Source: Hormiphora californensis (Eukaryota > Animalia > Ctenophora). From it: DNA of 64,000 nt. Position 1 is the first letter of the stretch. Each line of letters begins with the position of its first letter. The stretch is taken from the NCBI GenBank assembly GCA_020137815.1, contig CM035356.1, positions 7,626,001-7,690,000 of the forward strand. Direction: 5' to 3'. The notes below the pieces were generated by a model. The model did no database searches. It saw only the letters and a program-made list of their open reading frames with translations, and had not been told where the DNA came from. Of this stretch, positions 2,071 to 64,000 are shown in pieces. The position numbers and the translations under genes were made by a program.

Positions 2071-3090
2071 CAGTCGGACCCCGATTTAGTGGCATCCTCG
2101 GGGGAAAGAAATCCTGCCACTAAATCGGGGTGCCACTAAATCGGGGTGAGCCATATTTGGCCCATAAAAACCTATTTTATGCCCAAAATGCTATACTAAG
2201 ACTAAAGACACCTGTTATATGCAATATTCATGTATTGATGACATGATCATATCTAATTAGAAATAGAAAACTATCAAATAACTTTTTCAAAAAATTTGTG
2301 AAAAATTTTCTAAGTCATACCAGCCCGTCCAATTTGTGTTTCGAATCGGTGCAGCTTCCTGGATGTCCTGTCTAATTAGCAGGTTCGAAACGAACCGATA
2401 CGTGATACCATGCCGAATCGGTGCACCCTAAGCGGGTGAGGAAGTATCAAAATTTCAAAATAACATTTTCTCTCAAAATTTATGGGGAGCACCGATCAAA
2501 GCATTGACAATCGTACTGTAAAATTTTGCAAAAAAAAGTTTTAAAATTTTTTAAAGGTATACCAGCCACGTCCGAATCGTGTTTCGAATCGGTGCATCTT
2601 ATCGCATGTCTTGCTGCTAATTAGACGGTTCGGAACGAATCGAAACGTGATCCCCATCGAATCGAAATTTTGACGCTTGGTGAACTTATGATTCAATGGC
2701 CCCATGGGGATCACGTATCGGTTCGTTCCGAAATGTTAATTAGCAGCAGGACATGCGATAAGATTCACTGATTCGAAACACGATTTGGACGTGGCTGGTA
2801 TTCCTTTGAAAAATTTTCAAAAAATTTTCAAAAAAATTTTATTCTGAATAATGAGTTCAGAGCAAGAATTAAATAGGGAAGAAAATCGAAAAATACTGGG
2901 TTTGACCGGGAATTGAACCAGGGACCTCCAGAGAGACATGCTCGGAGCTATAAACCACTAAGCTACCAAACCCTACTTCCTTTTTCAAAAAAATTCACAA
3001 AAAAATTCAAAAAAATTTTTGGGGGAAAAAAATCCTGCCACTAAATCGGGGTGCCACTAAATCGGGGGCCACTAAATCGGGGTCCGACTG
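2071..3090. mobile_element. Non-autonomous Tc1/mariner-type TIR element (MITE), family A
   Basis: TIR CAGTCGGACCCCGATTTAGTGGC / GCCACTAAATCGGGGTCCGACTG; TA on the left, CA on the right (mutated TSD); subterminal CCACTAAATCGGGG repeats; internal inverted repeat ~2545-2820; no transposase ORF. Confidence 0.85.
2898..2973 (-). pseudogene. tRNA-like (tRNA-derived) cassette inside MITE A
   Basis: Minus strand GGGTTTGGTAGCTTAGTGG...GGTTCAATTCCCGGTCAAACCC: A box, B box, paired acceptor stem, downstream T-run; anticodon loop non-canonical. Confidence 0.65.
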
Positions 3091-4401: not shown

Positions 4402-6034
4402 GATATGTACCACTCGATCACTATATTGGTGGTGTGAGGAGAGAGAGGGAGTTATTATAGGGTCGAAAACTAAGAATATTACTGTATGAGCGGTATGCAA
4501 GTTGTGCAATGTGCAGAGAGAATGGGCGGGTGTCGTATTGATACAAGCAGGCAGTTAATTGATTTGTGACAACATTAACAGCTGATTAAGGAGCTGATTA
4601 ATTGCAGTTATAGCATTATAAGTACTGAGAACAAGACAAAGTATAACCGAGAACAACCACCAGAATTCACAACTTTGATGAGTTACAACATGTGCTTTGA
4701 CACAATAAGCTCAAGTGTAGTACGTGTGTGTCACTACTTTAGTGGCAACGTTATTACGAGGGTGGTGTATTGAATTAAAGTGATAATAAGAGATCACTTT
4801 CGTCATGAGCTGTACATTATTAATCGCGAGATTAAAAAGTGTGTCATAATTAAATAAGCATTATTTATCATAATCCCTTTAGATGATTGTTATGTATAAT
4901 TAAGGTTATAGATCATGACGTTTATTCTTTACTTAAAGTAATAGTCTACTAAATGTAAATTTAAACACCTACAAATTTCTTTGACAGCCCAAAGAATTTA
5001 TTACAGAATATTTTACGACTCGTCGAATAATTAAACTACGAGACTGCATAGCGTTTTTGGAGACTCATAATATGAGACTCATATATTTACGGTGCATATT
5101 TTAACCATCACGGCATCACTGCAGTTTATTTAATGACCCTGTTTTGCAGATCTACCGGAAATGCGTAATTTAGAGTATCCTAAAGACCGCGAAATAAGAT
5201 GCACTATGCCGATAAATAATAGCTTAAAGTTAAAGGGAAGATTTTTTGGAATTTCGATATATAATGTGGCTTCACATGAATTGTAACGGACGTTTGACAG
5301 ACACGAAACTAAGAAATTACGTGGTACCTTTTTAATGTGTAAAATGGTTTTCAATAAAAAAGAGAGGGAAAAAGAGAGACACGCTTTCTGGTAATGAACC
5401 TATAAAAAGTGTCATGTCTACCAATTACCAACAATAGCTCTCGAAATTTGGCGAGACAAGTTTGAGATATTAATATAAAAGTTTGATGAATCTATAAAAA
5501 CTTTGACAGATAGTTTCAATTTTTATAGTTTCACAATTTCTATAGTTCTAACTTCTACATATAAGTTACCGAGAGTTAAGAGGTATATACAGACGACTTT
5601 AACCAAGTACTGCAGCCGATGAAGCATATTGATCTGTAGCAGACTCAAAGGAAAACGAAGATGAGCTTCAGGGAAGTGCTCTTTCAATTCCAGGTAAAAT
5701 GATACAGTGCGATCAGAGAATCTCTGATACTACAGTGCGATCAGTTGAATAGTGATCAGAATAACCGTGGAAGAAAGAGAAAAATAGACGGATGAAACGA
5801 AAGAGAGAGGGAAAACGAAAGAGAAAATTAGAAGGGAGTAGGAAGGGAGAGATGTTAGTAAATTATGGCGATCGGAAGAAAATTGAGTGGCAGTTCTTAA
5901 TTAGCCAATCTAGTGCAACACACAGCCATGTAGAATAACGGCTCTCAATCAGATTCCTTTACACACTTCAATCAAGAAGATCATCATATAGCTGTTGATA
6001 ATTGAACTGTGAGCCATGGACATCTAGACAATTA

Positions 6035-6996
6035 CCGCGTGGGCCAATAAAAAGGGAGGGTCTTAAATCTTAGATTTCTCCGGCACCTTAATTCCAATGG
6101 TTCTGAAATTTTGACACAATGTTCATGAGCTTATGCCAGATATGTGTACAGAGTTTCAAGTCCAAAAATGCAAAAATTCATTAATGACCCTAAATTCATG
6201 ATTTTAAGCCAATGTAGGTTTTCTCTATTCGTTTTTTTCCCCGTTTTTTAGGGACCTCTTTTGCACTCCACGCCGGATATGTGATACTGGGTACAACAAA
6301 GGAAATTCGAGACATATTGCAATCTTGCTAACATGATTTTGTAACAACCTGATTACGTTTTTTCTTGCTTACATGGAGGTCACATTACGCTTGTTGTTAC
6401 CAATCAGTATAGGCATTGGTAAGCTTCCATTAGCAAGGTTTCGATTTGCTAATGTCTCAACTAACGGTTTGTTAATGAACTATCGGTTAAATGTTAATTT
6501 ATGCAGTTATTAACGAAAATTTGAAAATTTAAAAAAATTTAATTTTTTTTAATTTAACAGTTTTTCATACCAGAATGAACTTAAATGATTAAAGCATAAC
6601 CCAGCTAGGTTTTGATTTCATCTCTACAGTGCAAATTTCTCATTTTCAGCGAAAATATGTTTTTTGAAAAAATGATCATTTTTAATTCATTAATTTCACC
6701 CACTAAACTTTATTCATTTTCAATGAAATTTCAGATTGCCATTGAAAAATGTTAATACTATTGAGTGGCTGCAATTTTGCGATCCAAATCGACTTGGAAC
6801 AAGGGAAAACCTCCAATTAACTATAAAAAAAAGGAATTTCGGTTCATTAATGAATTTCTGCATTTTTGGACTTGAAACTCTGTACACATATCTGGCATAA
6901 GCTCAACAACATTGTGTCAAAATTTCAGAACCATTGAAATTAAGCTGCCCGAGAAATCTAAGATTTAAGACCCTCCCTTTTTATTGGCCCACGCGG
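6035..6996. mobile_element. Non-autonomous Tc1/mariner-type MITE with ~150-bp TIRs
   Basis: TA|CCGCGTGGGCCAATAAAAAGGGAGGGTC... and ...GACCCTCCCTTTTTATTGGCCCACGCGG|TA; AT-rich non-coding interior. Confidence 0.9.
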
Positions 6997-7750
6997 TATA
7001 TAGTTTATACATGGTTAAAATATTCTGAATCAGTCCACTCTCACTTTAAAGATCTAGAAGTGAGATACCTTAATATGGCGCATCAAATTAAACGTGTGCA
7101 TCTGATATACGATGCTAGATAGTATCTTGGACTATACTTCCCACGATGTAGCTAATATAAATTGTCTGAATAATAAAAATAAAGCGTTATAAGAGCCCAG
7201 TTTAGGTCACCTAATTTGATACTGTGTATGTTGTATCTACAATTTGGCACTGAATTTACCACTTATACCGGGTGACAGACAATTCGTCCAACTATTGCAG
7301 GGCTTGTTCACGTAGCGGGCACGCGAACAGAGGGGCGTGACATGTCCAGTTGCAGGGTGGAACTAGGATGGCCGTCCTCATAAACTAGAAGTCTAATAAA
7401 CTGTCTATTTGCTAGGTCTGATAGTTATGTTTCATATATCAACATGGATATTATATGCAATATCAGGCTAAATACACCCATCTCTAGAGTGGAAATGTCC
7501 GTCAGAACTAAACGTGCATAAACTACACATGAGCACCAAATAAATACCAAATAGGTTTATAAGTTAGGAATGGTTTAGCACGGGGACGGTCCAAAAAAAA
7601 GAAAAAAAAAAGGTTAGGAACATGGTTTCGGACCAGAAGAAGTGCAGAACAAATCAGCAGTGCAATAAACAAGGCGTGTTTATTATGTGTAAATGTGTGT
7701 CGGCTTCAGAAAGACCAATGTTGCGAAACGCTATCTCACCCTGTAGCTTT

Positions 7751-12759: not shown

Positions 12760-14002
12760 GAGAGGGTAAGGAGAGAGAAAAGGGAAAAAAGAGAAAATGG
12801 GAAAAGAAGAGAGAGAAAAGAGTGGGAAGGGAGAGGGTCTCTCTCGCTCCCGATCTCCTGTCTCGATATCTCTCTCTCCCTCGTTCCCCCTTTCCTTTTG
12901 GTCTTTTCTCGCTCTTTTTTTACTTTGCGGACTCCGCTCTTATACCCTTTTTCCCGTTCTTTTGGTGCTCAAATTTTTAATCCCCCCTTTTTTTTAGAGA
13001 ACAATTTATTGTTTTTCCACTTTAGTTTTTTTTCCGGGGCTCCTGCATCCCCAAATTTTTTTATCCCCCCTTTTTATTTCCTTTTTTTTTTAATTTTAAA
13101 ACTTTTTTTTAAAAAATTTTTATAAAATTTTTTTTCAAAATTTTTTTAAAATTATATGGTTTTTTATTTATTAAAAGTTTATTTTTTTTAAAAAAATGTA
13201 TTGTTGAAAATTTTTTTTTTCCCTTTTTTTAACAAAAAACAATTTTTTGGGGAAAAAAATTTTTTAAAAGTTTTTTTAAAAGTTTTTTTGGTTTTTTAAA
13301 AAAATTAAAAAAAAACCCGAAAAGGGGGGGCCCAAAAAGAATTTAAAAAAGGGGGGGGGGGGGAAAAAAAAAAAAAGGGGGGGGAAATGAGGAAAGGGGA
13401 AAAAAAACTTTTGGGGTTTTTTAATTGGGGTTTAAAGTAAAAATTTAAAGGGGGGGAAAAAAAAAAAAAAGGGGTTGGGGGGGGTTGGGGTTTTAACCCA
13501 AGGGGGTTTTTTAATCAATTTTTCCAATTTTTTTTCTTTTTCCCCCCACTTTTTTATTTTTAAACCCCTTTTTATTTTTTTCCCAATGGCGAAAATTTTT
13601 TTTCCCTCGCCCCCCCCTTTTTTTTTTTCCCCCCCCCTTTTTTTTTTTTTAAAATTTTTTGCAAATTTTTTATTAAAAAATCAAATTTTTCCCCAAAAAA
13701 TTAATTCAATCTGTTTTTAAAAAATTAACCTAAAGTTTCCTTTAAAACCCCCACAACCCCATAAATCCCATTATAAACTTTATTCATTTTATTTTTCTTT
13801 CTCCCTTTTTCCCCTTTTCTTCCGGAGGGGGGGAAAAATTTTAAGGAAATTTTTTTTGGAAAGGGTTTGGGTTTTTTTTTTTAAATTTAAAATTTTTTAA
13901 AAATTTTTTTAAAAAAATTTTAACTAATTTTTTTTTTTTATTTTTTATTTTTTTTTTTTATTTTTTATTTTTTTTTTTTTTTTTTTTTAAATTTTTTTTT
14001 TT

Positions 14003-14042
<40 letters not shown>

Positions 14043-14660
14043 TTTGGGAAATTCCTTTTCCCCCGGGGTTTTTTTTTTTTTTCTTTTTATTTTCCCCCCC
14101 CCCCCTTTTTTTTTTTGGGGAAAAAAAAAAAAAAAAAAATTTTTTTGGGGGGGTTTGATGAAAAACCCCTTTTTTAATAAATTTTTTTCTTTCCCCCCCC
14201 CCCAAAAAATTCCACACGTTTGACAATTAAATTAAAAAATTGATCAAACCCCCTTAAATTTCCCCCAAAGCTAAAAATTTTTTTTGAAAAAGGGGGGAAA
14301 AAAAAAGGGGGGATTGGGTTAAAAATTAAAAAAAAAAAAAACCCCCCCCAAAAGAGGAGAGGGAAGGAAGAGCGGGGAGGGGGAGGGAATTAGAGGGTTT
14401 TTTTAATTTCTTAAATTTGGAACCCCCCCCCCCCCTTTTTTCCCACTTCGAAATAGGGGATAGCACCCCTTTAAGTAAAAAAAAAATTGGGGCTCTTCCC
14501 TTTCACCATCTAATTTAATGGACTTTTTCATTTTCTTTCAAATTTGGGGATTTAAGTCCCATTTTAAACTTTTCCCCCTTTTTTCCCCCTTTTTTCCCAA
14601 CCGGGGCCCTTTTCCCTACTAAATTTAAGCCCCCCTTTCAGTATGGGGGGGACAATGACT
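12760..14660. other. Homopolymer-saturated low-complexity tract, probably low-quality consensus
   Basis: Almost entirely runs of A, T, G or C with no periodicity; begins right after a GA tract and ends near a foldback element. Confidence 0.7.
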
Positions 14661-14801: not shown

Positions 14802-16217
14802 GGCAATTTCTCATTTGCCGCATACGGCGTCTAGACGGCGTCGCACCGCCGTCTAGACGGTGTCCAGACGGTATACCGTCTAGACGGATTTTGATAAAAT
14901 CAGCTAAAAACGGTACCAAAATTGCTTGAAACGGGTTATAGACGGTATCAGACGGTGTTGCGACGGTATCAGACGGTCTCTAGACGGTACCGTCCCGGTG
15001 TCTAGACAGTGTCTGGACGGTCTCTAGACGGTATCCGTCCAAAGTTGAGACGGCACGTCTGAAAATTGTACCAGACGTTGAGACGTACTTTTAGAACTCC
15101 GTCCGTATTTCAGACGGAGTTTTAAAAGTACGTTTAAACGCAGTCTAAAGGAAAATCGATGAAAGTACCGTCTAAACAACGTCTCAACTGAAGTGTGGGG
15201 GGACACGTCCGGGGCGTGGGAGGTCATACGAAGTCAAAACACGGTGTCCCCCCACACTCCAATGTATCACCCCGTCCGCCTTTTCCACAACATGAACGTC
15301 TCAACTGAAACCGGTCAACATACCGTCTAAACAACGTCTAAACAGAATCTCGCGATTCAGTTTCAAATACCGTCTAGACAACTTCTCCAGCAATTTCGAT
15401 ACGAATACCGTCTAAACAACGTCTAGACAACGTCTTAAGCGAATCCGATACAGATACAGATTCAATAGGCACACATCTACCACTAATTCCAACTGGCATG
15501 GGTAAACCAGAATGGTCTTCAAAAACGGTCGAGTCTAGACAACGTTATTTGAGACGTTGTCTAGACGTTGTTTAGACGGTATTCGTATCGAAATTGCTGG
15601 AGAAGTTGTCTAGACGGTATTTGAAACTGAATCGCGAGATTCTGTTTAGACGTTGTTTAGACGGTATGTTGACCGGTTTCAGTTGAGACGTTCATGTTGT
15701 GGAAAAGGCGGACGGGGTGATACATTGGAGTGTGGGGGGACACCGTGTTTTGACTTCGTATGACCTCCCACGCCCCGGACGTGTCCCCCCACACTTCAGT
15801 TGAGACGTTGTTTAGACGGTACTTTCATCGATTTTCCTTTAGACTGCGTTTAAACGTACTTTTAAAACTCCGTCTGAAATACAGACGGAGTTCTAAAAGT
15901 CCGTCTCAACGTCTGGTACAATTTTCAGACGTGCCGTCTCAACTTTGGACGGATACCGTCTAGAGACCGTCCAGACACTGTCTAGACACCGGGACGGTAC
16001 CGTCTAGAGACCGTCTGATACCGTCGCAACACCGTCTGATACCGTCTATAACCCGTCTAGAGACCGTCTGATACCGTCTATAACCCGTTTCAAGCAATTT
16101 TGGTACCGTTTTTAGCTGATTTTATCAAAACCCGTCTAGACGGTATACCGTCTAGACACCGTCTAGACGGCGGTGCGACGCCGTCTAGACGCCGTATGCG
16201 GCAAATGAGAAATTGCC
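14802..16217. mobile_element. Foldback / MULE-type non-autonomous element
   Basis: ~630-bp TIRs starting GGCAATTTCTCATTTGCCG; 9-bp TSD CCCTAAATT at 14793-14801 and 16218-16226; arms built of TCTAGACGG-type subrepeats; ~115-bp spacer. Confidence 0.9.
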
Positions 16218-40259: not shown

Positions 40260-41463
40260 GTATCTCTCTTGATGGTGGCTTGTCCCCGGCATCCTATTTG
40301 CATAAATCGCTCGCCCCTATTATAATTATGGTACCATAACTACACATGTCAGACCTATATCATCGTTCACCACACAATGTGAGAAATCAAAAGTGTACAA
40401 TTTATTGGCAAACTAAAATCATTTTCCGTTTAGGAAACTAAAATTGTTCCACACCTACTACCGTAATTATAGTTTAAAGTTAAACTAGCCAGACATCACA
40501 CACGCCAATCTCTCTTTCTCTGATCGCTGGATTGCCCAGTTTAAAACCGAAAGATATCAAAATGGCTATTTTTAGATTCATCTCATACTTCCTAAATCTA
40601 AGTTTGGATCAGTGCATCATAAATCAGCATAAATGAGCTACAAAGTTCATTAAAAGCTGAGATATATTTTATTACAGTGATATCGGTCCTTTGCAAAAAC
40701 ACAACGGTGTACCAAAGGGGGGGGGGGGGGGTCAGCCGATATTGGCCTTGGATATAATTATGTACCTAAGGAGGAAATTTATCAGTAGTAGTAGCTGCAA
40801 TGGTGTGATTCCAAGCGCTAATGAGTTAGAAGGGGTCGCAACCGATTCTTGCTCGGCCCGACCTTTCACACCTGAACGTTATACACATAACGGAAATTAC
40901 AGCTGTAGCTGAATAAATTCAACATCTAAGGGCAGGATCATCTCTATACTATACTGAATCCGCGGGTAGTTCAGATGGTAGGGGTCTTTTGACATGTCCG
41001 CCCTAAAAGCATTGTGTATTGCCTCTTTCCTCTCACATACTCTCACTATCATTACGTCCTCTCCCTCCCTCTCCCCCGAAGATCTGCAGTTGGCTAGTGG
41101 TATGTTAGCCCCTCAACAGTGTACAGTTTGCTGTATGTCAAGATATGGAGAGGGAGGGAGGGCTCTGATATGGAGAGGGTCAAGGAGTCGGAGAAGGGAT
41201 ATATCGAGAGGTGCAGGGTGCGGATACGAAGAGGATACCATTGTATCCGTAGCCACATTTAACTACCACATCAGTAGCTATTGTGATACTTCCAGAAATT
41301 GGATGGTTGCTATGGTTGCATACAATTGTTGTTTTGCACAAAAACTTGTAATTATAGCAAACACTTCTCCTAAGACGAGCTGTACTGATTGGTTTATTAT
41401 ACGAATGATGTTATGCCGTTATTTTCTGTCACTTTTACTGTCATTATGAAATAAATAGTTATA

Positions 41464-43025
41464 CAGGGTGTCCCATATATTCTGTGGGTCGGTTGGCGAG
41501 CTGTCACGCAAAAACGGTGATAGTTGTGTGAAAACAAACTACGGGAGTGTGCTGGATTAATTCCTTCCTAACTGATGGCTTTGTTTTTAAATTAAATTTC
41601 AAAAGTTCATTTTTCATGAATGAACATTCCTGTCATTCATTCGTGAATTCTGAAATATTGTTTACCTTGAGTAAAAAACTTTTCTTTGGCTCGAAATTAT
41701 CTTTCCAATGAGCACCATAAAAATCAAATTGAAGCACCGGATCGCATGGCAGGTGAGAAAATGCAAATGCATGATTTTGGCCATTCCTGCGACTTTCAAT
41801 CAGCTGTATCACCGCTACTTTCAGTTCAATCCTTTTAAAAGTTTGGGCGAACATTGGTGAAGATAAGATCTTTGCTCACAAGAAAAATCAAGGTCAAAAG
41901 TCAAAGTTCATTTTTCATTTTTGGTAGTTCATTCCACTCATTCAGGAACAAACATCCCTAAAGTGACGAAAAGGTTTGGGTTTTGTTTGGCTTATGTCCT
42001 GAAACGACAGAGAGGTGTAAAAACGTGTTTCCGGGCTAGTTAGTTGGTGTCCATGTGATCATTATGATATCTGACACCTTTGCTGAGCCATAATTAAGAG
42101 ATTTTCTCAAATTCAAACATGGGATACGAGTATTCTGCGATTGGTATCGTGCACCAATAACAAGAGATCCCATAGCACCTCAAAAATTATGATTAGCTAA
42201 ATGAAATGAGTTGATTCACGCTTGAAAATGTTCGTTTAGTCCGAATTTACATTGGTTTTAATCTTTTCAATCGTAAATCAACTCATTTTTAGCTAATCAT
42301 AATTTTTGAGGTGCTATGGGATCTCTTGTTATTGGTGCACGATACCAATCGCAGAATACTCGTATCCCATGTTTGAATTTGAGAAAATCTCTTAATTATG
42401 GCTCAGCAAAGGTGTCAGATATCATAATGATCACATGGACACCCACTAACTAGCCCGGAAACACGTTTTTACACCTCTCTGTCGTTTCAGGACATGGGCC
42501 AAACAAAACCCAAACCTTTTCGTCACTTTAGGGATGTTTGTTCCTGAATGAGTGGAATGAACTACCAAAACTGAAAAATGAACTTTGACTTTTGACCTTG
42601 ATTTTTCTTGTGAGCAAAGATCTTATCTTCACCAATGTTCACCCAAACTTTTAAAAGGATTGAACTGAAAGTAGCGGTGATACAGCTGATTGAAAGTCGC
42701 AGGAATGGCCAAAATCATGCATTTGCATTTTCTCACCTGCCATGCGATCCGGTGCTTCAATTTGATTTTTATGGTGCTCATTGGAAAGATAATTTCGAGC
42801 CAAAGAAAAGTTTTTTACTCAAGGTAAACAATATTTCAGAATTCACGAATGAATGACAGGAATGTTCATTCATGAAAAATGAACTTTTGAAATTTAATTT
42901 AAAAACAAAGCCATCAGTTAAGAAGGAATTAATCCAGCACACTCCCGTAGTTTGTTTTCACACAACTATCACCGTTTTTGCGTGACAGCTCGCCAACCGA
43001 CCCACAGAATATATGGGACACCCTG
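41464..43025. mobile_element. Near-perfect 1.56-kb palindromic Tc1/mariner-type MITE
   Basis: TA|CAGGGTGTCCCATATATTC... / ...GAATATATGGGACACCCTG|TA; ~765-bp arms with a ~35-bp spacer near 42230-42262. Confidence 0.92.
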
Positions 43026-43173
43026 TATATGATCGATTATGATCACCTCCCGATCATCTATTTGAAGCCAAAAACGTCTGTATATAAGTTTGGTGTTAAA
43101 CTAGCTACAGAACACAGAACTGTGGTCAGAGCATTGGCCTGACAGCTACAGAACATTATTCGGGTCTACTTAC

Positions 43174-48079: not shown

Positions 48080-48616
48080 GGGCCTTTCTTAACGAGCTGC
48101 ACCCTGCAATTGCACCCTGCAATTGCACCCTGCAATTGCACCCTACAAACTTCTTTCTTAACGAGAGTTTGCACCCTGCAATTGCACCCTGCAATTGCAC
48201 CCTGCAAACCTTCGTTAAGAAAGAAAGTTGTAGGGTGCAATTGCATGCTTCACACGTGACCCAGTCACGTGCCATGTTGATGTGGTAATGCTGTGTGTAT
48301 CAATGCCAATAGGTGATGATAAACAATGCCCCGTAAACCGGGTTTCATGTTTCACTACCCCTCAACTTCCCACGTTCATTGCGCACGTGACTGGGTCACG
48401 TGTAAAGGGTGCAATTGCACCCTACAAGAACCTTTCTTAACGAGAGTTGTAGGGTGCAATTGTAGGGTGCAATTGCAGGGTGTAATAGGTCCTCCTGTTA
48501 CACCCCTACAGGGTGCAAAGACCTTTCTTAACGAGACAGAAAGTGGATTGCACCCTGCAATTGCAGGGTGCAATTGCAGGGTGCAATTGTAGTTTTTGTC
48601 TCGTTAAGAAAGGCCC
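48080..48616. mobile_element. PIF/Harbinger-like MITE with internal 14-15-bp subrepeats
   Basis: TIR GGGCCTTTCTTAACGAG / CTCGTTAAGAAAGGCCC flanked by CAA on both sides (or CCAAG with a 1-bp shorter TIR); arrays of TGCACCCTGCAAT in both orientations. Confidence 0.75.
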
Positions 48617-49888: not shown

Positions 49889-49987
<99 letters not shown>

Positions 49988-50144
49988 CTCGCTCTATCGC
50001 TCTTCTCTCTCTCGCTCGCGCTCTCTCTCTGCTACTCTCATCTCTCTCTATCTCTCTCTCGCTTCTCGCTCTCTCTTGTCGTCTCTTTCTTCTCTATCTC
50101 GACCTCTAGCTGGAGAGACGCTAGAGTAAGTAGATAAAGTAGTA

Positions 50145-53100
50145 CCCGTGCTGTCACACAACACAAAAAGTGGGGTACACAAATATTAGAGGGTTTTTTA
50201 CCTCAACATTTAGTTATGCGGAATATTTATGATCATAATGATCGAAATGATCAAAATGATTATAATCAAAATGATCACAATGATCAAAATGATCAAAATG
50301 ATCGAAATGATCGAAATGATCGAAATGATTCTGACAGCCAACGTGCATGCGTGGGCGACCAAATAACCTGCATTGTGGGTTTAATTTTCTCGATCGGCAG
50401 ATTCTGCTCTGACCAGCCAAACGTACCATGCGTGGGTGACTAAATAAACTGCATGTGTGAGTTTAACTCACCCAATACCCGCTCCACCGGGTAACATGGT
50501 GGGGGCGAATGAGTCTGCTGCATATGCAGCACATGTGGTACATGCAGCATATCAAAGACCTCCCCCAACGGGGGAGGTCATTGTGAGCATGAAATCCGGA
50601 TTAATTGATTGAAATCTGGATTAATTGATTCATATGATTCATATGATTTGCGTGAAATCATATGAATCATATGGATCATATGAAAGTAAAACACGGGCGT
50701 CATCTCAAGTTTGTACTATGTGTATAACTGCACCTAACTATACCTCGTTTTATATCAAAGTGTCTAAGTGTAATAAGTGAAACATGGGAAATATACAGGT
50801 CACTTGAAATTTCAATGTGTGTATGAAATCCGGATTAATTAATTGAAATCCGGATTAATTGATTCATATGATTCATATGATTTGCGTGAAATAATATGAA
50901 GCATATGGATCATATAAAAATAAAAAAAAAGGTTTTTTAAAAGATATGGACAAACTGTGGGATATCATAGATCATAATGATCAAAATGATGAACAAAATG
51001 ATCGAAATGATCAAAATGATCAAAATGTTGATCAAAAATAACGATTAAAATGATCAAAAATGATGGCCATTAAAATCAAAATGATCAAAAATGATGATCA
51101 TAATGATCAAAATGATCAAAAATGTTGGTCATTAAAGTCAAAATGATCAAAAATGATGGTCATTAAAATCATTATGATCAAAATGATCAAAATTATGATC
51201 AAAATGATCAAGAATGGTGATCAAAATGATCGAAATGATCAAAAATCCGGATTATTTTGATATATATTATTATATATATTATGTCGTGAAATCATATGAA
51301 ATCATATGAATCATATGGATCATATGAAAGTAAAAAGATATGACAACTCTTGGATCAAAAATGATCAAAATGATCTGAATAATGATTAAAATGATCAAAA
51401 ATAATGATCATAATGATCAAAAATAATGATAATAATGATCATAATGATCAAAAATAATGATAATAATGATCAAAATGATCAAAAATGTTGGTCATTAAAG
51501 TCAAAATGATGATCAAAATGATCAAAAATGATGGTCATTAAAATCATAATGATCAAAATGATCAAAATGATCAAAAATAATGATCAAAATATTGATCAAA
51601 AATAATGATAATAATGATCAAAATGATCAAAAATGTTGGTCATTAAAGTCAAAATGATGATCAAAATGATCAAAAATGATGGTCATTAAAATCATAATGA
51701 TCAAAATGATTAAAATGATCAAAAATAATGATAATAATGATCAAAATAATCATAGTTATCATAATACAGTCGGACCCCGATTTAGGGACACCCTCGGGGG
51801 AAAGGCTCTTGTCCACTAAATCGGGGTGTCCACTAAATCGGGGTCAAATAAGGTTAATTTCCTATATCGGGGGAAAAAAATCCTGTCCCTAAATCGGGGT
51901 GCCACTAAATCGGGGGGCCCTAAATCGGGGTCCGACTGTATTATGATAACTATGATTATTTTGATCATTATTATCATTATTTTTGATCATTTTAATCATT
52001 TTGATCATTATGATTTTAATGACCATCATTTTTGATCATTTTGATCATCATTTTGACTTTAATGACCAACATTTTTGATCATTTTGATCATTATTATCAT
52101 TATTTTTGATCAATATTTTGATCATTATTTTTGATCATTTTGATCATTTTGATCATTATGATTTAATGACCATCATTTTTGATCATTTTGATCATCATTT
52201 TGACTTTAATGACCAACATTTTTGATCATTTTGATCATTATTATCATTATTTTTGATCATTATGATCATTATTATCATTATTTTTGATCATTATGATCAT
52301 TATTTTGATCATTTTAATCATTATTCAGATCATTTTGATCATTTTTGATCCAAGAGTTGTCATATCTTTTTACTTTCATATGATCCATATGATTCATATG
52401 ATTTCATATGATTTCACGACATAATATATATAATAATATATATCAAAAATAATCCGGATTTTTGATCATTTCGATCATTTTGATCACCATTCTTGATCAT
52501 TTTGATCATAATTTTGATCATTTTGATCATAATGATTTTAATGACCATCATTTTGATCATTTTGACTTTAATGACCAACATTTTTGATCATTTTGATCAT
52601 TATGATCATCATTTTTGATCATTTTGATTTTAATGGCCATCATTTTTGATCATTTTAATCATTATTTTTGATCAACATTTTGATCATTTTGATCATTTCG
52701 ATCATTTTGTTCATCATTTTGATCATTATGATCTATGATATCCCACAGTTTGTCCATATCTTTTAAAAAACCTTTTTTTTATTTTTATATGATCCATATG
52801 CTTCATATTATTTCACGCAAATCATATGAATCATATGAATCAATTAATCCGGATTTCAATTAATTAATCCGGATTTCATACACACATTGAAATTTCAAGT
52901 GACCTGTATATTTCCCATGTTTCACTTATTACACTTAGACACTTTGATATAAAACGAGGTATAGTTAGGTGCAGTTATACACATAGTACAAACTTGAGAT
53001 GACGCCCGTGTTTTACTTTCATATGATCCATATGATTCATATGATTTCACGCAAATCATATGAATCATATGAATCAATTAATCCAGATTTCAATCAATTA

Positions 53101-53549
53101 ATCCGGATTTCATGCTCACAATGACCTCCCCCGTTGGGGGAGGTCTTTGAATCTGCTGCATGTACCACATGTGCTGCATATGCAGCAGACTCATTCGCCC
53201 CACCATGTTACCCGGTGGAGCGGGTATTGGGTTGAGTTAAACTCACACATGCAGTTTAATTAGTCACCCACGCATGTACGTTTGGCTGTCAGAGCAGAAT
53301 CTGCCGATCGAGAAAATTAAACCCACACATGCAGGTTATTTGGTCGCCCACGCATGCACGTTTGGCTGTCAGAATCATTTCGATCATTTCGATCATTTCG
53401 ATAATTTTGATCATTTTGATCATTGTGATCATTTTGATTATAATCATTTTGATCATTTCGATCATTATGATCATAAATATTCCGCATAACTAAATGTTGA
53501 GGTAAAAACCCTCAATATTTGTGTACCCCACTTTTTGGTGTGACAGCGG
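50145..53549. mobile_element. 3.4-kb palindrome / foldback element with AATGATCAA-type 9-bp satellite arms
   Basis: Arms 50145-51766 and 51939-53549 are reverse complements apart from small indels; ends (C)CGCTGTCACAC / GTGTGACAGCGG|TA. Confidence 0.8.
51767..51938. mobile_element. 172-bp MITE of family A at the palindrome centre
   Basis: TA|CAGTCGGACCCCGATTTAG...CTAAATCGGGGTCCGACTG|TA; same TIR and subrepeats as 2071-3090. Confidence 0.9.
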
Positions 53550-53567
53550 TACTACTTTATCTACTAC

Positions 53568-53741
<174 letters not shown>

Positions 53742-58166: not shown

Positions 58167-60807
58167 TATGTACGTGATTATGTTGATAACATACAAGCTC
58201 GAAAAATATGAAACAACAGCAAAATGAAGTCACTATTCAAACTGCAAAAGTAAAATGACGGATCCTGTTTTTTCCTGAAGCAATCTGCTTGACGGCAGTT
58301 CTGCTACAAAAGAAGGTCGGGAGCCAATTAGAATGACACATGTTATGTGAGTCATACTGCAGTTATACTACATGGCATTGGCCATTGAATTGAGACTTAA
58401 ATGGCAAATTAGGGTGGTAGACTGATTGGGTATTATAGACAAGTTGGATAGATTGATCAATTCTTACGACAAGACCCACCCTAGTACAAATATTATGTTG
58501 ACCTTTGTTAATTGACAAGTAGCAGTAATTGATCCTAATTACCCTTCACTATTGCAAACATGTGTCCGTCGCTTGAGAAAACAATCCGTCACGCAAATGC
58601 AAGCCATCCGCAGGATTGCTATAATAGGATCCAGATTGTCAGAGTTTCTATTATTTTCTCTGATACAATGTGAGGCTAACAAACAGTTATCCGACCAACT
58701 GTCTACTATAGCTATTGCAGGATCCACTAGAACTCTTACATTTACATCTGAATGACATTAGGACTCGGACAACTGTACATACTACATCTTACACGCAAAC
58801 TGTCTGTTAGTATGTACCTACACTTCAAAAACACTAGCTGGTTGCTGAGTAAAGGCCGGGTGGAGAACGATATAATGAATTGGTGTATGTTGTTTTGGCT
58901 AACAACCCTCAGAGATAGCTGACATCAACAAACTTAGTACGAGGGGGGCACAACTGGACACCTGGGTACCATCTAACAGGTATTGAAGAGAAAGGGTGAG
59001 GGAGACAGAGAGAGTAAGGGGTTGAGAGAGAGAAGGAGAAAAGAAGATGGTGATAGTACAGAAGTGACTAATGGTAAAGATGATGCTCAAGGTCTGGTAT
59101 GTGTATTATACACAACAGCTGCACGGAATGACGAGAGAAGCAGGCAGGAAGGAGACATAGAGAATCCTGGGGGTTTGAGTCGGGAGAAAGAATTAGAGAG
59201 TAGGTTTATCTTAGACTATAAATGCATGTCTATAGACAATATAGACAACGATATATCGCTGTAGTATCAATGAGCACTTACCGACTGTGAAAATACTGCA
59301 GTGCTTCCATTCTTCATTCCTCACTTATCAGAGCATTGGCCTGACAGTTCCTCACTTCACGCTCCAAGTTCTCCGAGATGATAGACATTCATGAAGTCTT
59401 GCCAAACGATAGCTGAACCATGTGTTACAACGCATTCGTCACTTCAAAGTCATGGCTTCAAAGTGAATACTGAATAATTGTTTTATAAACAGAAGGCGAG
59501 GGAACTGAAGGATTCTACGATATACTGCAAGGTGTTTCTAGAGCCTGATAGGACCTCCGAGGAGAGATTGGAAAGGAGAAGAACTCTACAGACTCTGTGA
59601 TTTGAGAGTGTCACATCCTGAGGGACGTTACGTGATAAGACGTGGAGTGATTCAGTGTGTGTAGAACTCCGGGTGTTGCCTGTTATAGCGGGATTTTCCT
59701 GCGTTGGCAAAGCCCTTGATTGGGTGTGTGTAAATATTTGGTTTTCATTGTTTTCCGTTCCCTTTCTAAATTTTACCCCGATACAAAAAACAGTAATTAT
59801 TTAAGTTATTTCATACCGTATACCTTGCCATGCTATTATAGCACGCGATACTAAAGCACACTTTTTCAGCTAGATCAGGCTAAACATGTGCTTATATTAC
59901 CCGAGCGCTACGTAAAGTGTGCATCCCGTTACAGTAACGCGTTATACCGTTTCTCCACTGCAAGCAGCCGTGTCAAGGATTTAGAGACGAATTGTATGTT
60001 GACCTAAGAACCCTGAATCACAGACTCAAGGATTTAGAGACGTATCCCTGTTAAGAAGGGATCAATGCAGGAATACTGTATGAAGGACCTGGGAGACGCT
60101 GTGATTCGTTGGTTTGATGAATTTCCTTAATTTAGAATTGACATACTCGAGGAAGTTGATTTAAAAAATGGGGCGAATCGTTTTGAAACCAAAGATTGAG
60201 TAAAGGAAGGACCGAAAGTGATGAAGAATCGGGGAGACTGAGAAAATAATTATTTGTAATCTTAGTTCTCTTTATTATTATTATTATCATTATCTCTATC
60301 TTCATTATAGAGAGAAATAATTCTTTTGTCACGCGTGAATAAGGATATCCGGAGAAAGGGTGAAAGAGAAGTAGCACTTCATTTTGAACCATTTCCCCGG
60401 GCCCAATTGCTTAACCAAAGAACTTGATAGATTGCTCGTGAACCTGTTTCAATGTCACCAAGTACAATTTACATCAGTTTGTAGTTGCCGGATCAGCACT
60501 GCATCTCTCAGCTTTATCTCTAGCCTCGGGGGGGGGGGGGGGTCTAGCCTCGCTACTGCATCTAATTTCTGCAATCCAATCCTTGGTTTGCTGCTTTTTT
60601 AAATTGCCGGCTCTTATATATATACACAGACGTTTGGTTGTCAAGCAGTAAGGGACGCAGGTGGTAGATTGCCTCAAAATATACATTGGGAATCGCTTTC
60701 TGAATTTCAGAACTATTTTATGAACATAGGTCATAGTGCAACAGCCAACAAGCCCTTCTTTTATAGATAAGAGCAAACAACTACATAGCCGATATAACTC
60801 TGTGAAC

Positions 60808-61044
60808 ATGGCCCTCGTGTTTACTGTAAGGGTTATTTCATTGGTTTTAATGATGTACGTCATGTCACCTGAACCAGCTACTGAACCTGAATCGAACTGT
60901 GAAGTTGTTGAAGTGAATGGCTACCTACACGAACAGTGCGGTGTGAGAAATGGTAAACAGTTATTCAAGTGCCCCTGGTCTGGGTCAGATAAACTTTACC
61001 ATTTACTTACTGATAATGAAATAAATAAATACTGTGAATATTTT
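60808..61044 (+). CDS. 5' part of a Cys-rich LDLa-domain receptor (GRL101-like LDLa-LRR-GPCR family), signal peptide MALVFTVRVISLVLMMYVMS
   Basis: Hydrophobic N-terminus followed by a Cys-rich ectodomain ending ...NKYCEYF at the insertion site; the frame resumes exactly after the duplicated TGTGAATATTTT at 62478-62489. Confidence 0.75.
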
Positions 61045-62477
61045 AGGATAATGTTTTAATTATGCACTGAACTGCTGTAGACATCACCCACTCACTTCAC
61101 CCACACACAACACCCACACACATGACCAAGCCTGTACGACAGGTTATTGATCACCGGCTGTATTACAGCACGAGAGAGCCGTCACTAGTATCGTGCAGTG
61201 ATCCGAGGATCATGATAACAATTAATATGACGTGATCAACTGCTATAGCCCAACTGTTCATTCTGAGAATTCTGATACAAAGATATTATTTGCCGTACTG
61301 ATATATGAGGTAACTCCAACCCCCCAGTTTCATCTCCTTGTTTAACATGGGAGTTACCAAGGGAATCCACTGAGTTCGATTAATCTAGGCACATACCCAC
61401 AGTACTATTCGAATTGGCGTATCTTTATATCAGGAATCTCGGATAGCAACAATCCTTGTGTTTTATGAATGAACAGTCAGGCTATAGCAGTTGATCACGT
61501 CATATTAATTGTTATCATGATCCTCGGATCACTGCACGATACTAGTGACGGCTCTCTCGTGCTGTAATACAGCCGGTGATCAATAACCTGTCGTACAGGC
61601 TTGGTCATGTGTGTGGGTGTTGTGTGTGGGTGAAGTGAGTGGGTGATGTCTACAGCAGTTCAGTGCATAATTAAAACATTATCCTTGATACGTGAGCACT
61701 GCTGATAATAAGAGCCCTGTCTATACGCCTAATCTGTTCAGATAGCAATAAAACACAAGGATTGTTGCTATCCGAGATTCCTGATATAAAGATACGCCAA
61801 TTCGAATAGTACTGTGGGTATGTGCCTAGATTAATCGAACTCAGTGGATTCCCTTGGTAACTCCCATGTTAAACAAGGAGATGAAACTGGGGGGTTGGAG
61901 TTACCTCATATATCAGTACGGCAAATAATATCTTTGTATCAGAATTCTCAGAATGAACAGTTGGGCTATAGCAGTTGATCACGTCATATTAATTGTTATC
62001 ATGATCCTCGGATCACTGCACGATACTAGTGACGGCTCTCTCGTGCTGTAATACAGCCGGTGATCAATAACCTGTCGTACAGGCTTGGTCATGTGTGTGG
62101 GTGTTGTGTGTGGGTGAAGTGAGTGGGTGATGTCTACAGCAGTTCAGTGCATAATTAAAACATTATCCTTGATACGTGAGCACTGCTGATAATAAGAGCC
62201 CTGTCTATACGCCTAATCTGTTCAGATAGCAATAAAACACAAGGATTGTTGCTATCCGAGATTCCTGATATAAAGATACGCCAATTCGAATAGTACTGTG
62301 GGTATGTGCCTAGATTAATCGAACTCAGTGGATTCCCTTGGTAACTCCCATGTTAAACAAGGAGATGAAACTGGGGGGTTGGAGTTACCTCATATATCAG
62401 TACGGCAAATAATATCTTTGTATCAGAATTCTCAGAATGAACAGTTGGGCTATAGCAGTTGATCACGTCATATTAAT
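61045..62477. mobile_element. 1433-bp insertion with 12-bp TSD made of a 484-bp unit (422-bp inverted copy + ~2.1 tandem copies)
   Basis: TSD TGTGAATATTTT at 61033-61044 and 62478-62489; unit starts at 61467, 61951 and 62435; 61045-61466 is the reverse complement of 61748-62169. Confidence 0.85.
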
Positions 62478-62489
62478 TGTGAATATTTT

Positions 62490-64000
62490 CTGCCCACAAA
62501 ACGCTGCCCAAATGACCCGGGAGTTTACCAGGCATGCGGACATGATGGTTGTTCAGTGTACAGAGAACTGAACGGGACAACCCTCCTCTGTGGAACGTAC
62601 ACCTGCCAACATAATAAGTTAAATTATGTCTATGGTGGTAGCTATGGTGAGAAGGTAGCTCACTGTGAACCTAATTACCATTGTGACGGGGACTTGAACA
62701 TGATAGGTTGTGATGGTATAAGATGGTGTGATGGGGTATGTGGTAGTTGGTGGAACTGTGAAGATGAGTCATACTGTAACGGTGTTCAGTATGGTGTACA
62801 GTGTGGGGACAAATGGGTGCGTCCTCGCTTGATGTGTGATGGCTATTCAGATTGTCCCAATGGAGAAGATGAAATTGGGTGCTTCAATTGGACTACTGCT
62901 GACCATACCACATGTATTACTAAGCGGGGGACTAAACAACGTATCAAGATCCAGCAAAGTATGCGGTGCTTCAGGCCAAAATATTCAATATGTACCAATC
63001 GGCAGGATCATACCAACTGCAGTGATCCTGATAGAGTTGCAATGCAGTGTCTGTCAGAGGGATACCCAACAAACATTTCCATCTGGGGATACTGTGAGGG
63101 ATATGAAGATCTTTGTGATGATAATTACAATAATAAGTGCTTAGAACCTGAACTGGGGTGTACTATCCATAAAGGACAAAAGTGTGATGGACACGTTGAT
63201 TGTAAATTTAAAACAGACGAAATCTGCACAAGTCTCACTAACATTAGTTGTGTTCGAACATTCCGATCACAGCACATGGAAAGGAATACTCCACTCAGGA
63301 TACCATTGGAATGGGTTATGGACGACCAGATTGATTGCCTGGATGGGACAGATGAAGATCCAGACCAATGGAAAAAGTGTGTATCAGGAAACATCACCCA
63401 TTACATAGATCCCGAATCGGATTGTCAGCAGGTCCTCCTATGCCCGTCAGGAGACAAATTTGGGAAATTTATAGATCTTGCTAAACTTTGCGATGGAGTT
63501 AAAACGTGTTCTATTGAAAACGAACTTTGTGCAGCGGTCAATAATTTTGGAATTGAAGGAGTTGCTCGCACCGCTCGTATTACAAATAATGGTCAGCGGA
63601 TACTGCTACCTTGCGTATCGGGAGGAAGTGAGAACTCATCAAGCCAACTGACTAACTGTACGACGATAGAACACAAGACCGGACTCGCACAAACAGTTCT
63701 TGATGTCCAGAAACCTGTGATGATCATACTACCCAAAGAAAGGATAAACTGTTCACATTTGTATGGAGAAAACTATGTGTATGCGGCATGCAACAAACGT
63801 TGTCTGGATGCTGAATGCCCTCTCATCGATGTACCTGGAGACACTTGTCACAACAAAGTTGAATACAGAGTCCGAGCTCTCACAAAGAATAACACGCTAA
63901 CAACCTTGCTGAAAATCGAAAACGGTACAGAATCTCACAAGTACGACAAACAGATTTTCCCATGCGTCAACAAAAATTGTGTCCGATATGCAGAAGTATG
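62490..64000 (+). CDS. 3' continuation of the LDLa-rich receptor (open to window end; missing from the ORF track)
   Basis: Uninterrupted frame LPTKRCPNDPGVYQACG...CEDESYCNG...MCDGYSDCPNGEDEIGC...KCDGHVDC...DDQIDCLDGTDE...YGENYVYAAC...FPCVNKNCVRYAEV; CDGxxDCxxGxDE are LDL-receptor class A motifs; LRR/7TM parts would lie beyond the window (inferred). Confidence 0.85.
   Translation, partial: MPTKRCPNDPGVYQACGHDGCSVYRELNGTTLLCGTYTCQHNKLNYVYGGSYGEKVAHCEPNYHCDGDLNMIGCDGIRWCDGVCGSWWNCEDESYCNGVQYGVQCGDKWVRPRLMCDGYSDCPNGEDEIGCFNWTTADHTTCITKRGTKQRIKIQQSMRCFRPKYSICTNRQDHTNCSDPDRVAMQCLSEGYPTNISIWGYCEGYEDLCDDNYNNKCLEPELGCTIHKGQKCDGHVDCKFKTDEICTSLTNISCVRTFRSQHMERNTPLRIPLEWVMDDQIDCLDGTDEDPDQWKKCVSGNITHYIDPESDCQQVLLCPSGDKFGKFIDLAKLCDGVKTCSIENELCAAVNNFGIEGVARTARITNNGQRILLPCVSGGSENSSSQLTNCTTIEHKTGLAQTVLDVQKPVMIILPKERINCSHLYGENYVYAACNKRCLDAECPLIDVPGDTCHNKVEYRVRALTKNNTLTTLLKIENGTESHKYDKQIFPCVNKNCVRYAEV

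What the first reader, a model, noticed from the sequence alone, without database searches (positions are those of the whole stretch)
61033..62489. Receptor gene disrupted by a TSD-flanked insertion made of inverted plus tandem copies of a 484-bp unit
Seen: a 12-bp TSD (codons CEYF) brackets 1433 bp. Removing the insertion restores one continuous signal-peptide/LDLa ORF. The insert is a 422-bp inverted segment followed by about 2.1 near-identical head-to-tail units, and the inverted segment spans the unit junction, implying a circular or multimeric template. There is no TIR, poly(A) or ORF. Known: partial tandem plus inverted structures with variable TSDs occur in Penelope-like elements, non-LTR retrozymes and twin-primed retrocopies. 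I could not find a canonical hammerhead core (CUGANGA...GAAA), though the unit has several hairpins (e.g. GGTAACTCC/GGAGTTACC). Inference: a very recent insertion of a circular RNA/DNA-derived element, possibly a new family.
Basis: partly seen in the sequence, partly recalled or inferred. Interest (0 to 1): 0.7.

Follow-up and report, generated by a model that had tools for sequence, protein, structure and literature searches.

The report
Ribozyme-free Penelope-type repeat in receptor gene
A 1.4-kb insert made of back-to-back copies of an abundant, non-coding 484-base repeat breaks a receptor-like gene of what is probably a comb jelly; its layout matches that of Penelope-type jumping genes, so it is likely a small passenger copied by their enzyme, but it lacks the self-cutting RNA that similar animal repeats carry.

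Summary
A 12-bp duplication (61033-61044 = 62478-62489) brackets 1433 bp: a 422-bp inverted arm plus two 484-bp units and 43-46 bp of a third. Removing it restores one ORF that homologues align across. The unit is not unique: it is a high-copy head-to-tail repeat in two samples of one organism, and four gene contigs there stop matching exactly at the left border, as an empty allele would. The copies in the insert share letters that are minor in the family, so they come from one template. Partial tandem, head-to-head inverted 5' copy, short tail, 8-12-bp TSD and self-complementary sequence at the inversion point are the published signature of Penelope-like elements (PLEs). Here the two arms meet where the unit's main RNA stem pairs (reached by 0.5-1.9% of random position pairs). 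No hammerhead, HDV-like or Rfam ribozyme was found, so it fails the retrozyme definition. A circular template is possible but not shown. Best reading: a young insertion of a ribozyme-free, non-autonomous PLE passenger. The autonomous partner, RNA expression and fixed start points were not shown.

The parts
60808..61044 (+). 5' part of the host ORF (hydrophobic N-terminus, codons 1-79), receptor-like cysteine-rich family
   Evidence: homologues align across the empty site
61033..61044 (+). left copy of the 12-bp target-site duplication
61045..61466 (-). inverted arm, 422 bp, unit positions 282->484->1->219 read on the - strand; outer end = unit position 219
   Evidence: 100% complementary to 61748-62169
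61467..61950 (+). unit 1 (484 bp; position 1 = 61467); two altered letters at 61478-61479 next to the inversion point
61470..61490 (+). 5' strand of the predicted main stem (unit 4-24), directly at the inversion point
   Evidence: pair probabilities 0.55-0.98; junction test
61717..61740 (+). 3' strand of the predicted main stem (unit 251-274), 7 bp before the point where the inverted arm begins (unit 282)
61951..62434 (+). unit 2 (484 bp)
62435..62480 (+). start of a third unit, 43-46 bp (tail-like); the last 3 letters are shared with the TSD
   Evidence: (family D2)
62478..62489 (+). right copy of the 12-bp target-site duplication
62490..64000 (+). 3' part of the host ORF, open to the window end
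   Evidence: 28 homologues, best 79% identity

Best explanation
The insert is one young copy of an abundant, non-coding, ribozyme-free 484-base repeat that is likely copied from RNA into DNA by the reverse transcriptase and endonuclease of a Penelope-like retrotransposon of the same genome. Shown: TSD, two head-to-head arms, family abundance and head-to-tail form, one template sequence for all copies, complementarity at the arm joint. Inferred steps: (1) a + strand RNA holding several units in a row is made, more likely by read-through of a homogeneous tandem parent copy (about 0.55) than by running round a circle (about 0.35); (2) the endonuclease nicks the two strands 12 bp apart in AT-rich DNA; (3) the bottom-strand end primes at unit position 43-46 (3 letters of homology) and copies 2.1 units back to position 1; (4) the second arm, 282->219, is made either from the top-strand end priming at position 219, or by the first cDNA folding back on itself; (5) in both cases the joint forms because the cDNA of unit 4-24 is complementary to the cDNA of unit 251-274, the two strands of the RNA's main stem; one of the two altered letters next to the joint is the one that this pairing would template. 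The result truncates the receptor-like protein at 83 residues.
For: Layout equals the published PLE signature: partial tandem, adjacent inverted 5'-truncated copy, 30-40-bp tail (PMC8557442 passages); head-to-head inverted repeats with palindromes at the joint, TSDs of 8-10 bp, cis sequences sufficient for mobilisation in trans (PMC3846280 passages); both strands cut and extended, AT-rich ATT target, start without homology (PMC11167929 parts 1-2 of 4). Both outer ends are 3' ends of the + strand unit, as target priming needs. Unit is a family: 4804 and 1163 contigs laid in X1 and X4, summed depth 16,000-51,000 over the unit against 15-50 on 62507-62744 in X1, joint 62480->61997 in 4 of 4 runs. 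Letters at unit 57, 163, 164, 375 are the same in all three copies, 223 in both that hold it, and differ from the majority in the runs (at 163 the other letter holds 28203 of 28424 depth in X1). Four gene contigs in 3 of 4 runs stop matching at 61044 with 6-18 unaligned letters, none of the listed ones bridges. Joint complementarity reached by 0.46% of 20,000 random pairs, 0.5-1.9% over four window sizes. Circular fold z -4.1 (+) and -4.3 (-) against 30 shuffles, beyond 8 of 8 control stretches (+0.95 to -3.08). The family majority has a C-UUCG-G loop and a G-U-tolerated variant on the + strand. Naiad PLEs lack canonical hammerheads and are listed for two ctenophore genera.
Against: No autonomous partner was found or could be sought: no genome is held, and 56 window ORFs gave no RT or GIY-YIG hit. 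The two outer ends lie at unit 43-46 and 219, so the insert has no terminal inverted repeat, unlike the canonical PLE figure, and they are 173-176 nt apart rather than 30-40. Position 1 as the natural 5' end is only weakly favoured (21 of 242 rotations fold as well). The majority letters improve the - strand fold (5.6 kcal/mol) more than the + strand (2.1), so strand assignment rests on the tetraloop, one wobble site and arm orientation. One of the two altered letters at the joint matches neither strand. The gene contigs differ from the window by 4-8 letters plus gaps and their unaligned letters were not shown, so they may be paralogues; the runs may be of another population, in which 'minor letter' means less. 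RNA expression is not shown.
Confidence: 0.7

Rival explanations
1. The family lives as a covalently closed 484-nt RNA, closed without a known ribozyme (by a host ligase, back-splicing or an unrecognised self-cleaving motif), and the PLE enzyme runs round that circle from both ends of the cut. This differs from the best explanation only in the template.
For: All copies share the same minor letters; unit joints are seamless in both arms; compact fold on both strands; a 514-nt contig in X9 closes on itself and run X7, filed as RNA, holds the wrapped unit at depth 912 with no gene cover; retrozymes of 170-400 nt are circular RNAs (PMC7229834 passages).
Against: No hammerhead core on either strand, also with the majority letters; no HDV-like fold by a relaxed descriptor; Rfam gives 6 matches, all far below gathering. 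A tandem array in DNA gives the same closed contig. X7 being RNA is a guess by the tool. No predicted helix crosses the 484/1 joint, so the fold does not need a circle.
Confidence: 0.3
2. The unit is a satellite DNA; an extrachromosomal DNA circle or array fragment was captured at a staggered break by repair, with a fold-back switch.
For: Head-to-tail joints dominate in the runs; fold-back at a self-complementary stretch can occur on DNA.
Against: A clean 12-bp TSD without loss of target letters; both 3' ends point outward; RNA-type features (UUCG loop, wobble); layout identical to PLE insertions.
Confidence: 0.1
3. A SINE-like passenger of an ordinary LINE, inverted by twin priming.
For: 12-bp TSD ending in TTTT; 5' inversion.
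Against: No poly(A) or simple-repeat tail; no homology between the top-strand end and the RNA at position 219; the arms overlap by 422 bp of unit sequence and the direct arm is multimeric; ARAGORN and Rfam find no tRNA head in the unit.
Confidence: 0.07
4. Assembly or amplification chimera.
For: No listed contig bridges flank and insert; the window has other long inverted repeats and a poor-looking poly-T stretch near 13,100-14,100.
Against: A chimera would not duplicate 12 target letters and leave the frame restorable; two of the other inverted repeats look like ordinary foldback/MITE elements, one with its own 9-12-bp duplication; the runs do not appear to hold the window's allele, so no bridge is expected.
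Confidence: 0.03

Closest known systems
Non-autonomous Chlamys PLEs such as MRC1 and Chlamys-N4 (PMC8557442 section 10; 10.1101/2022.05.23.493040 passages)
   Same: Non-coding, multicopy head-to-tail insertions, young, partners lack canonical hammerheads
   Different: Green alga; those share 3' ends with a known autonomous partner, which could not be tested here; microsatellite targets there, an AT-rich exon here
Animal non-LTR retrozymes (PMC7229834 passages; 10.64898/2026.07.22.740005 part 1 of 5 and passages)
   Same: Small non-coding tandem unit, low GC, highly self-paired, TSD longer than 4 bp, abundant; proposed PLE passengers
   Different: Defined by a type I hammerhead in each unit, absent here; 484 nt is above the 170-400 nt range given; circles shown there, not here
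EN+ PLE insertions of Adineta vaga (Pen2a, Pen3a; PMC3846280 passages) and Naiads (PMC8557442)
   Same: Direct repeats plus head-to-head inverted copy, tail, 8-10-bp TSD, self-complementary sequence at the inversion point
   Different: No ORF; the inverted arm crosses the unit joint and ends at another point than the direct arm; the complementarity is a long-range stem (4-24 with 251-274), not a local palindrome

Membership tests
Non-LTR retrozyme | Type I hammerhead in each unit | tested here: not met
   No CUGANGA on +; the one on - has no GAAA; 3-8 variant cores not followed by stem II and GAAA; majority letters add a GAAAC but no core or cleavable triplet in place; Rfam none
Non-LTR retrozyme | Short non-coding units in tandem, multicopy, TSD over 4 bp | tested here: met
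Non-LTR retrozyme | Expressed as linear and circular RNA | tested here: inconclusive
   One run filed as RNA (a guess) holds the wrapped unit; contigs cannot show strand, level or circularity
Non-autonomous Penelope-like element | Partial tandem with adjacent head-to-head inverted 5'-truncated copy | tested here: met
Non-autonomous Penelope-like element | Variable TSD, AT-rich target, no poly(A) | tested here: met
   12-bp TSD, AT-rich; one insertion only, so variability not seen
Non-autonomous Penelope-like element | 30-40-bp tail between two fixed start points; inverted repeats at both ends | tested here: inconclusive
   43-46 bp of a third unit fits a tail, but the other arm ends 173-176 nt away; contigs could not show ends of other copies
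Non-autonomous Penelope-like element | Sequence shared with the pLTR or 3' end of an autonomous PLE in the same genome | not testable with these tools
   no genome held; none among 56 window ORFs
HDV-like / twister / hairpin ribozyme element | Ribozyme fold | tested here: not met
   Rfam at E up to 10; own HDV-like descriptor 0 hits on the window copy, both strands; weak descriptors can miss divergent motifs
tRNA-derived SINE | tRNA head with A and B boxes, A-rich tail | tested here: not met
MITE / Helentron-type passenger | Terminal or subterminal inverted repeats, fixed short or no TSD | tested here: not met
   no TIR, 12-bp TSD; family features recalled, from no call

The most novel reading that the evidence does not exclude
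A ribozyme-free circular RNA retroposon: a 484-nt circle made without any known self-cleaving motif (or with a new one), abundant in a comb jelly, reverse-transcribed round and round by a hammerhead-less Naiad-type enzyme, with the RNA's own main stem deciding where the two arms join.
Probability: 0.25. Interest if true: 0.75.

Novelty: new member of a known kind. Interest (0 to 1): 0.42.

Why it matters
It extends retrozyme-sized Penelope passengers to (probably) ctenophores, for which two searches found no description, and suggests the hammerhead is dispensable for this way of spreading. It is young enough to break a coding exon while other alleles seem empty. With hundreds of copies, the family allows a direct count of start points and inversion points, an open part of the PLE mechanism. 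If circles exist, either a new self-cleaving RNA or a ribozyme-independent route to circles is in reach.

Tried and rejected
Whole-genome copy search: no genome held; no second copy in the window. Exact 22-base pattern: 0 matches in metagenome and viral contigs; an 18-base pattern gave 8 loci, all 18-20-base chance matches. Fixed start at unit 219: first read into, then withdrawn, because the loose letters shown there are the element running on and the other records' letters were not shown. A shared CATA(A)TTAA motif before both arm ends: 9-17% of random pairs do as well, rejected. Plain closeness of positions 1 and 282 in the structure graph: 5.6-11.5% of pairs, weak. A degenerate three-way hammerhead using GAAAC at 221 and GUC at 33-35: pair probability 0. 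Absence of TTTT on the + strand: 5% of shuffles, only a hint. Parts of the gene without cover in the runs prove nothing. Of 24 runs listed, 6 were laid (X1, X2, X4, X5, X7, X9); the tables were cut (263 and 89 loose-end rows unseen). From the supplement of PMC8557442 only two metadata rows were seen; its ctenophore Naiad sequences were not compared with the unit. Supplements of the two bioRxiv papers were not seen and may list related repeats.

Full report
Observation. The sequence is as described. A 12-bp repeat stands at 61033-61044 and 62478-62489 and cannot be extended. Between lie 1433 bp: 61045-61466, the exact reverse complement of 61748-62169, then 61467-62480, which is two 484-bp units and 43-46 bp more, differing only at 61478-61479. 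With position 1 at 61467, the inverted arm runs 282->484->219. The empty site reads as one frame of 582 codons from ATG 60808; 7 of 28 homologues align across it with clear margins on both sides (P0002, P0003, P0006, P0008, P0017, P0023, P0026; one stretch of P0007 also crosses it). The filled allele stops at residue 83.

Host. The best homologues are EukProt models labelled sb/346xxxx, 79% at best. I recall these labels as Pleurobrachia gene models; no call names the species, so 'comb jelly' is an inference. Three homologues scanned carry LDLa domains, one also a 7TM domain; the window's own part has no Pfam hit. The gene belongs to a large family.

The unit is a family. Fourteen runs hold half or more of its words, six of them from one organism in two studies. 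On 61997-63000, 4804 (X1) and 1163 (X4) contigs were laid; summed depth in X1 is 16,000-51,000 over the unit and 15-50 over 62507-62744. The tool warns that this is no copy number; overlapping short contigs inflate it, so I take it only as hundreds of copies or more. The head-to-tail joint is in 4 of 4 runs; in X9 a 514-nt contig closes on itself. A 396-nt contig in X9 matches 44 letters and its loose ends resemble the neighbouring unit sequence, which suggests a diverged sister family. On 60760-61110, four gene contigs (X1 record 5, X2 record 13, X5 records 30, 31) stop matching at 61044 with 6-18 letters left over; none listed bridges into the insert. That is what empty alleles give, but the letters were not shown and the contigs differ from the window by 4-8 letters plus gaps.

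One template. The window copy differs from the majority in the runs at unit 57, 163, 164, 223 and 375 (other letter 99%, 91%, 92%, 63% of depth in X1 at the last four; position 57 from loose ends). All copies in the insert share the window's letters. So one sequence served for about three units: a circle, or a homogeneous tandem parent. The runs may be from another population, which weakens this point.

RNA features. The unit has no ORF. It folds better than shuffles as a circle on both strands (z -4.1, -4.3; eight control stretches +0.95 to -3.08). On the + strand the majority has a C-UUCG-G loop and pairs better at 163-164 and 375. No ribozyme was found: Rfam gives 6 weak matches far below gathering and only a tRNA elsewhere in the window; no hammerhead core with or without the majority letters; no HDV-like fold.

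The joint. Both outer ends are 3' ends of the + strand, as target priming needs. The right end shares 3 letters with the target, the left none. The arms meet at unit 1 and 282. The 30 letters after position 1 are complementary to the 30 before 282 (stem 4-24 with 251-274); 0.46% of 20,000 random pairs score as well, 0.5-1.9% at four window sizes. The test was chosen after seeing the stem and rests on one insertion. Of the two altered letters at the joint, one matches the partner strand and one matches neither. Two routes fit: priming from both target ends with annealing of the two cDNAs, or fold-back of the first cDNA. Whether 43-46 and 219 are fixed start points could not be told from contigs; my first reading in that sense was wrong and is withdrawn.

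Comparison. PLE insertions are described as partial tandems with an adjacent inverted 5'-truncated copy and a 30-40-bp tail; Naiads lack canonical hammerheads and are listed for Beroe and Mnemiopsis; non-autonomous Chlamys make multicopy head-to-tail insertions (PMC8557442: passages, section 10, two supplement rows). Adineta PLEs have head-to-head repeats with palindromes at the joint and 8-10-bp TSDs (PMC3846280, passages). A lizard PLE cuts and extends both strands in AT-rich DNA, starts inside its RNA without homology, and does not need hammerhead cleavage in vitro (PMC11167929, parts 1-2 of 4). Retrozymes are defined by their hammerhead (PMC7229834 passages; 10.64898/2026.07.22.740005 part 1 of 5 and passages; PMC4209133 part 1 of 4; PMC7761336 passages). 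So this works like a retrozyme or MRC1 but is not a retrozyme by definition; membership among non-autonomous PLEs is met on layout and untested on the partner. Searches for a ctenophore description and for this joint mechanism showed none in the listings; the library lacks most subscription journals. Earlier notes of this scan describe the same two-armed layout in other animals, with and without ribozyme; they are leads only, and none holds this sequence.

Verdict. A real, young insertion of an undescribed repeat family of a known kind. PLE-driven copying 0.7; circular template about 0.3. Interest 0.42: the layout is published, while the lack of a ribozyme, the likely host group and the stem-guided joint are the points worth following.

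Noticed in passing
window 41460-43029: Foldback/MITE-like element, 742-bp arms 99% complementary around 86 bp; ends TATACAGGGTG, resembling a TA-target DNA transposon (family likeness recalled)
   Followed up: partly
window 14802-16217: Foldback element with about 640-bp arms and a 9-12-bp flanking duplication
   Followed up: partly
window 49987-53699: Large palindrome with about 1.8-kb arms (96%) built of 9-bp ATGATCAAA-like tandem repeats
   Followed up: partly
window 6033-6998, 2280-2841, 48131-48613: Further short inverted-repeat elements
   Followed up: no
window 2897-2973 (-): tRNA-Thr(TGT)-like sequence, weak score 34 bits
   Followed up: no
window about 13073-14091: Irregular poly-T/poly-A stretch that looks like low-quality sequence
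   Followed up: no
window 60868-60891: Short stretch in the host gene's N-terminal part with much higher summed depth in all four runs: a motif shared by many paralogues or a repeat
   Followed up: no
run X9, record 25, on window 62235-62278: 396-nt contig that looks like a diverged sister family of the unit
   Followed up: partly
window 59973-60045: 20-bp direct repeat, 53 bp apart, upstream of the gene
   Followed up: no
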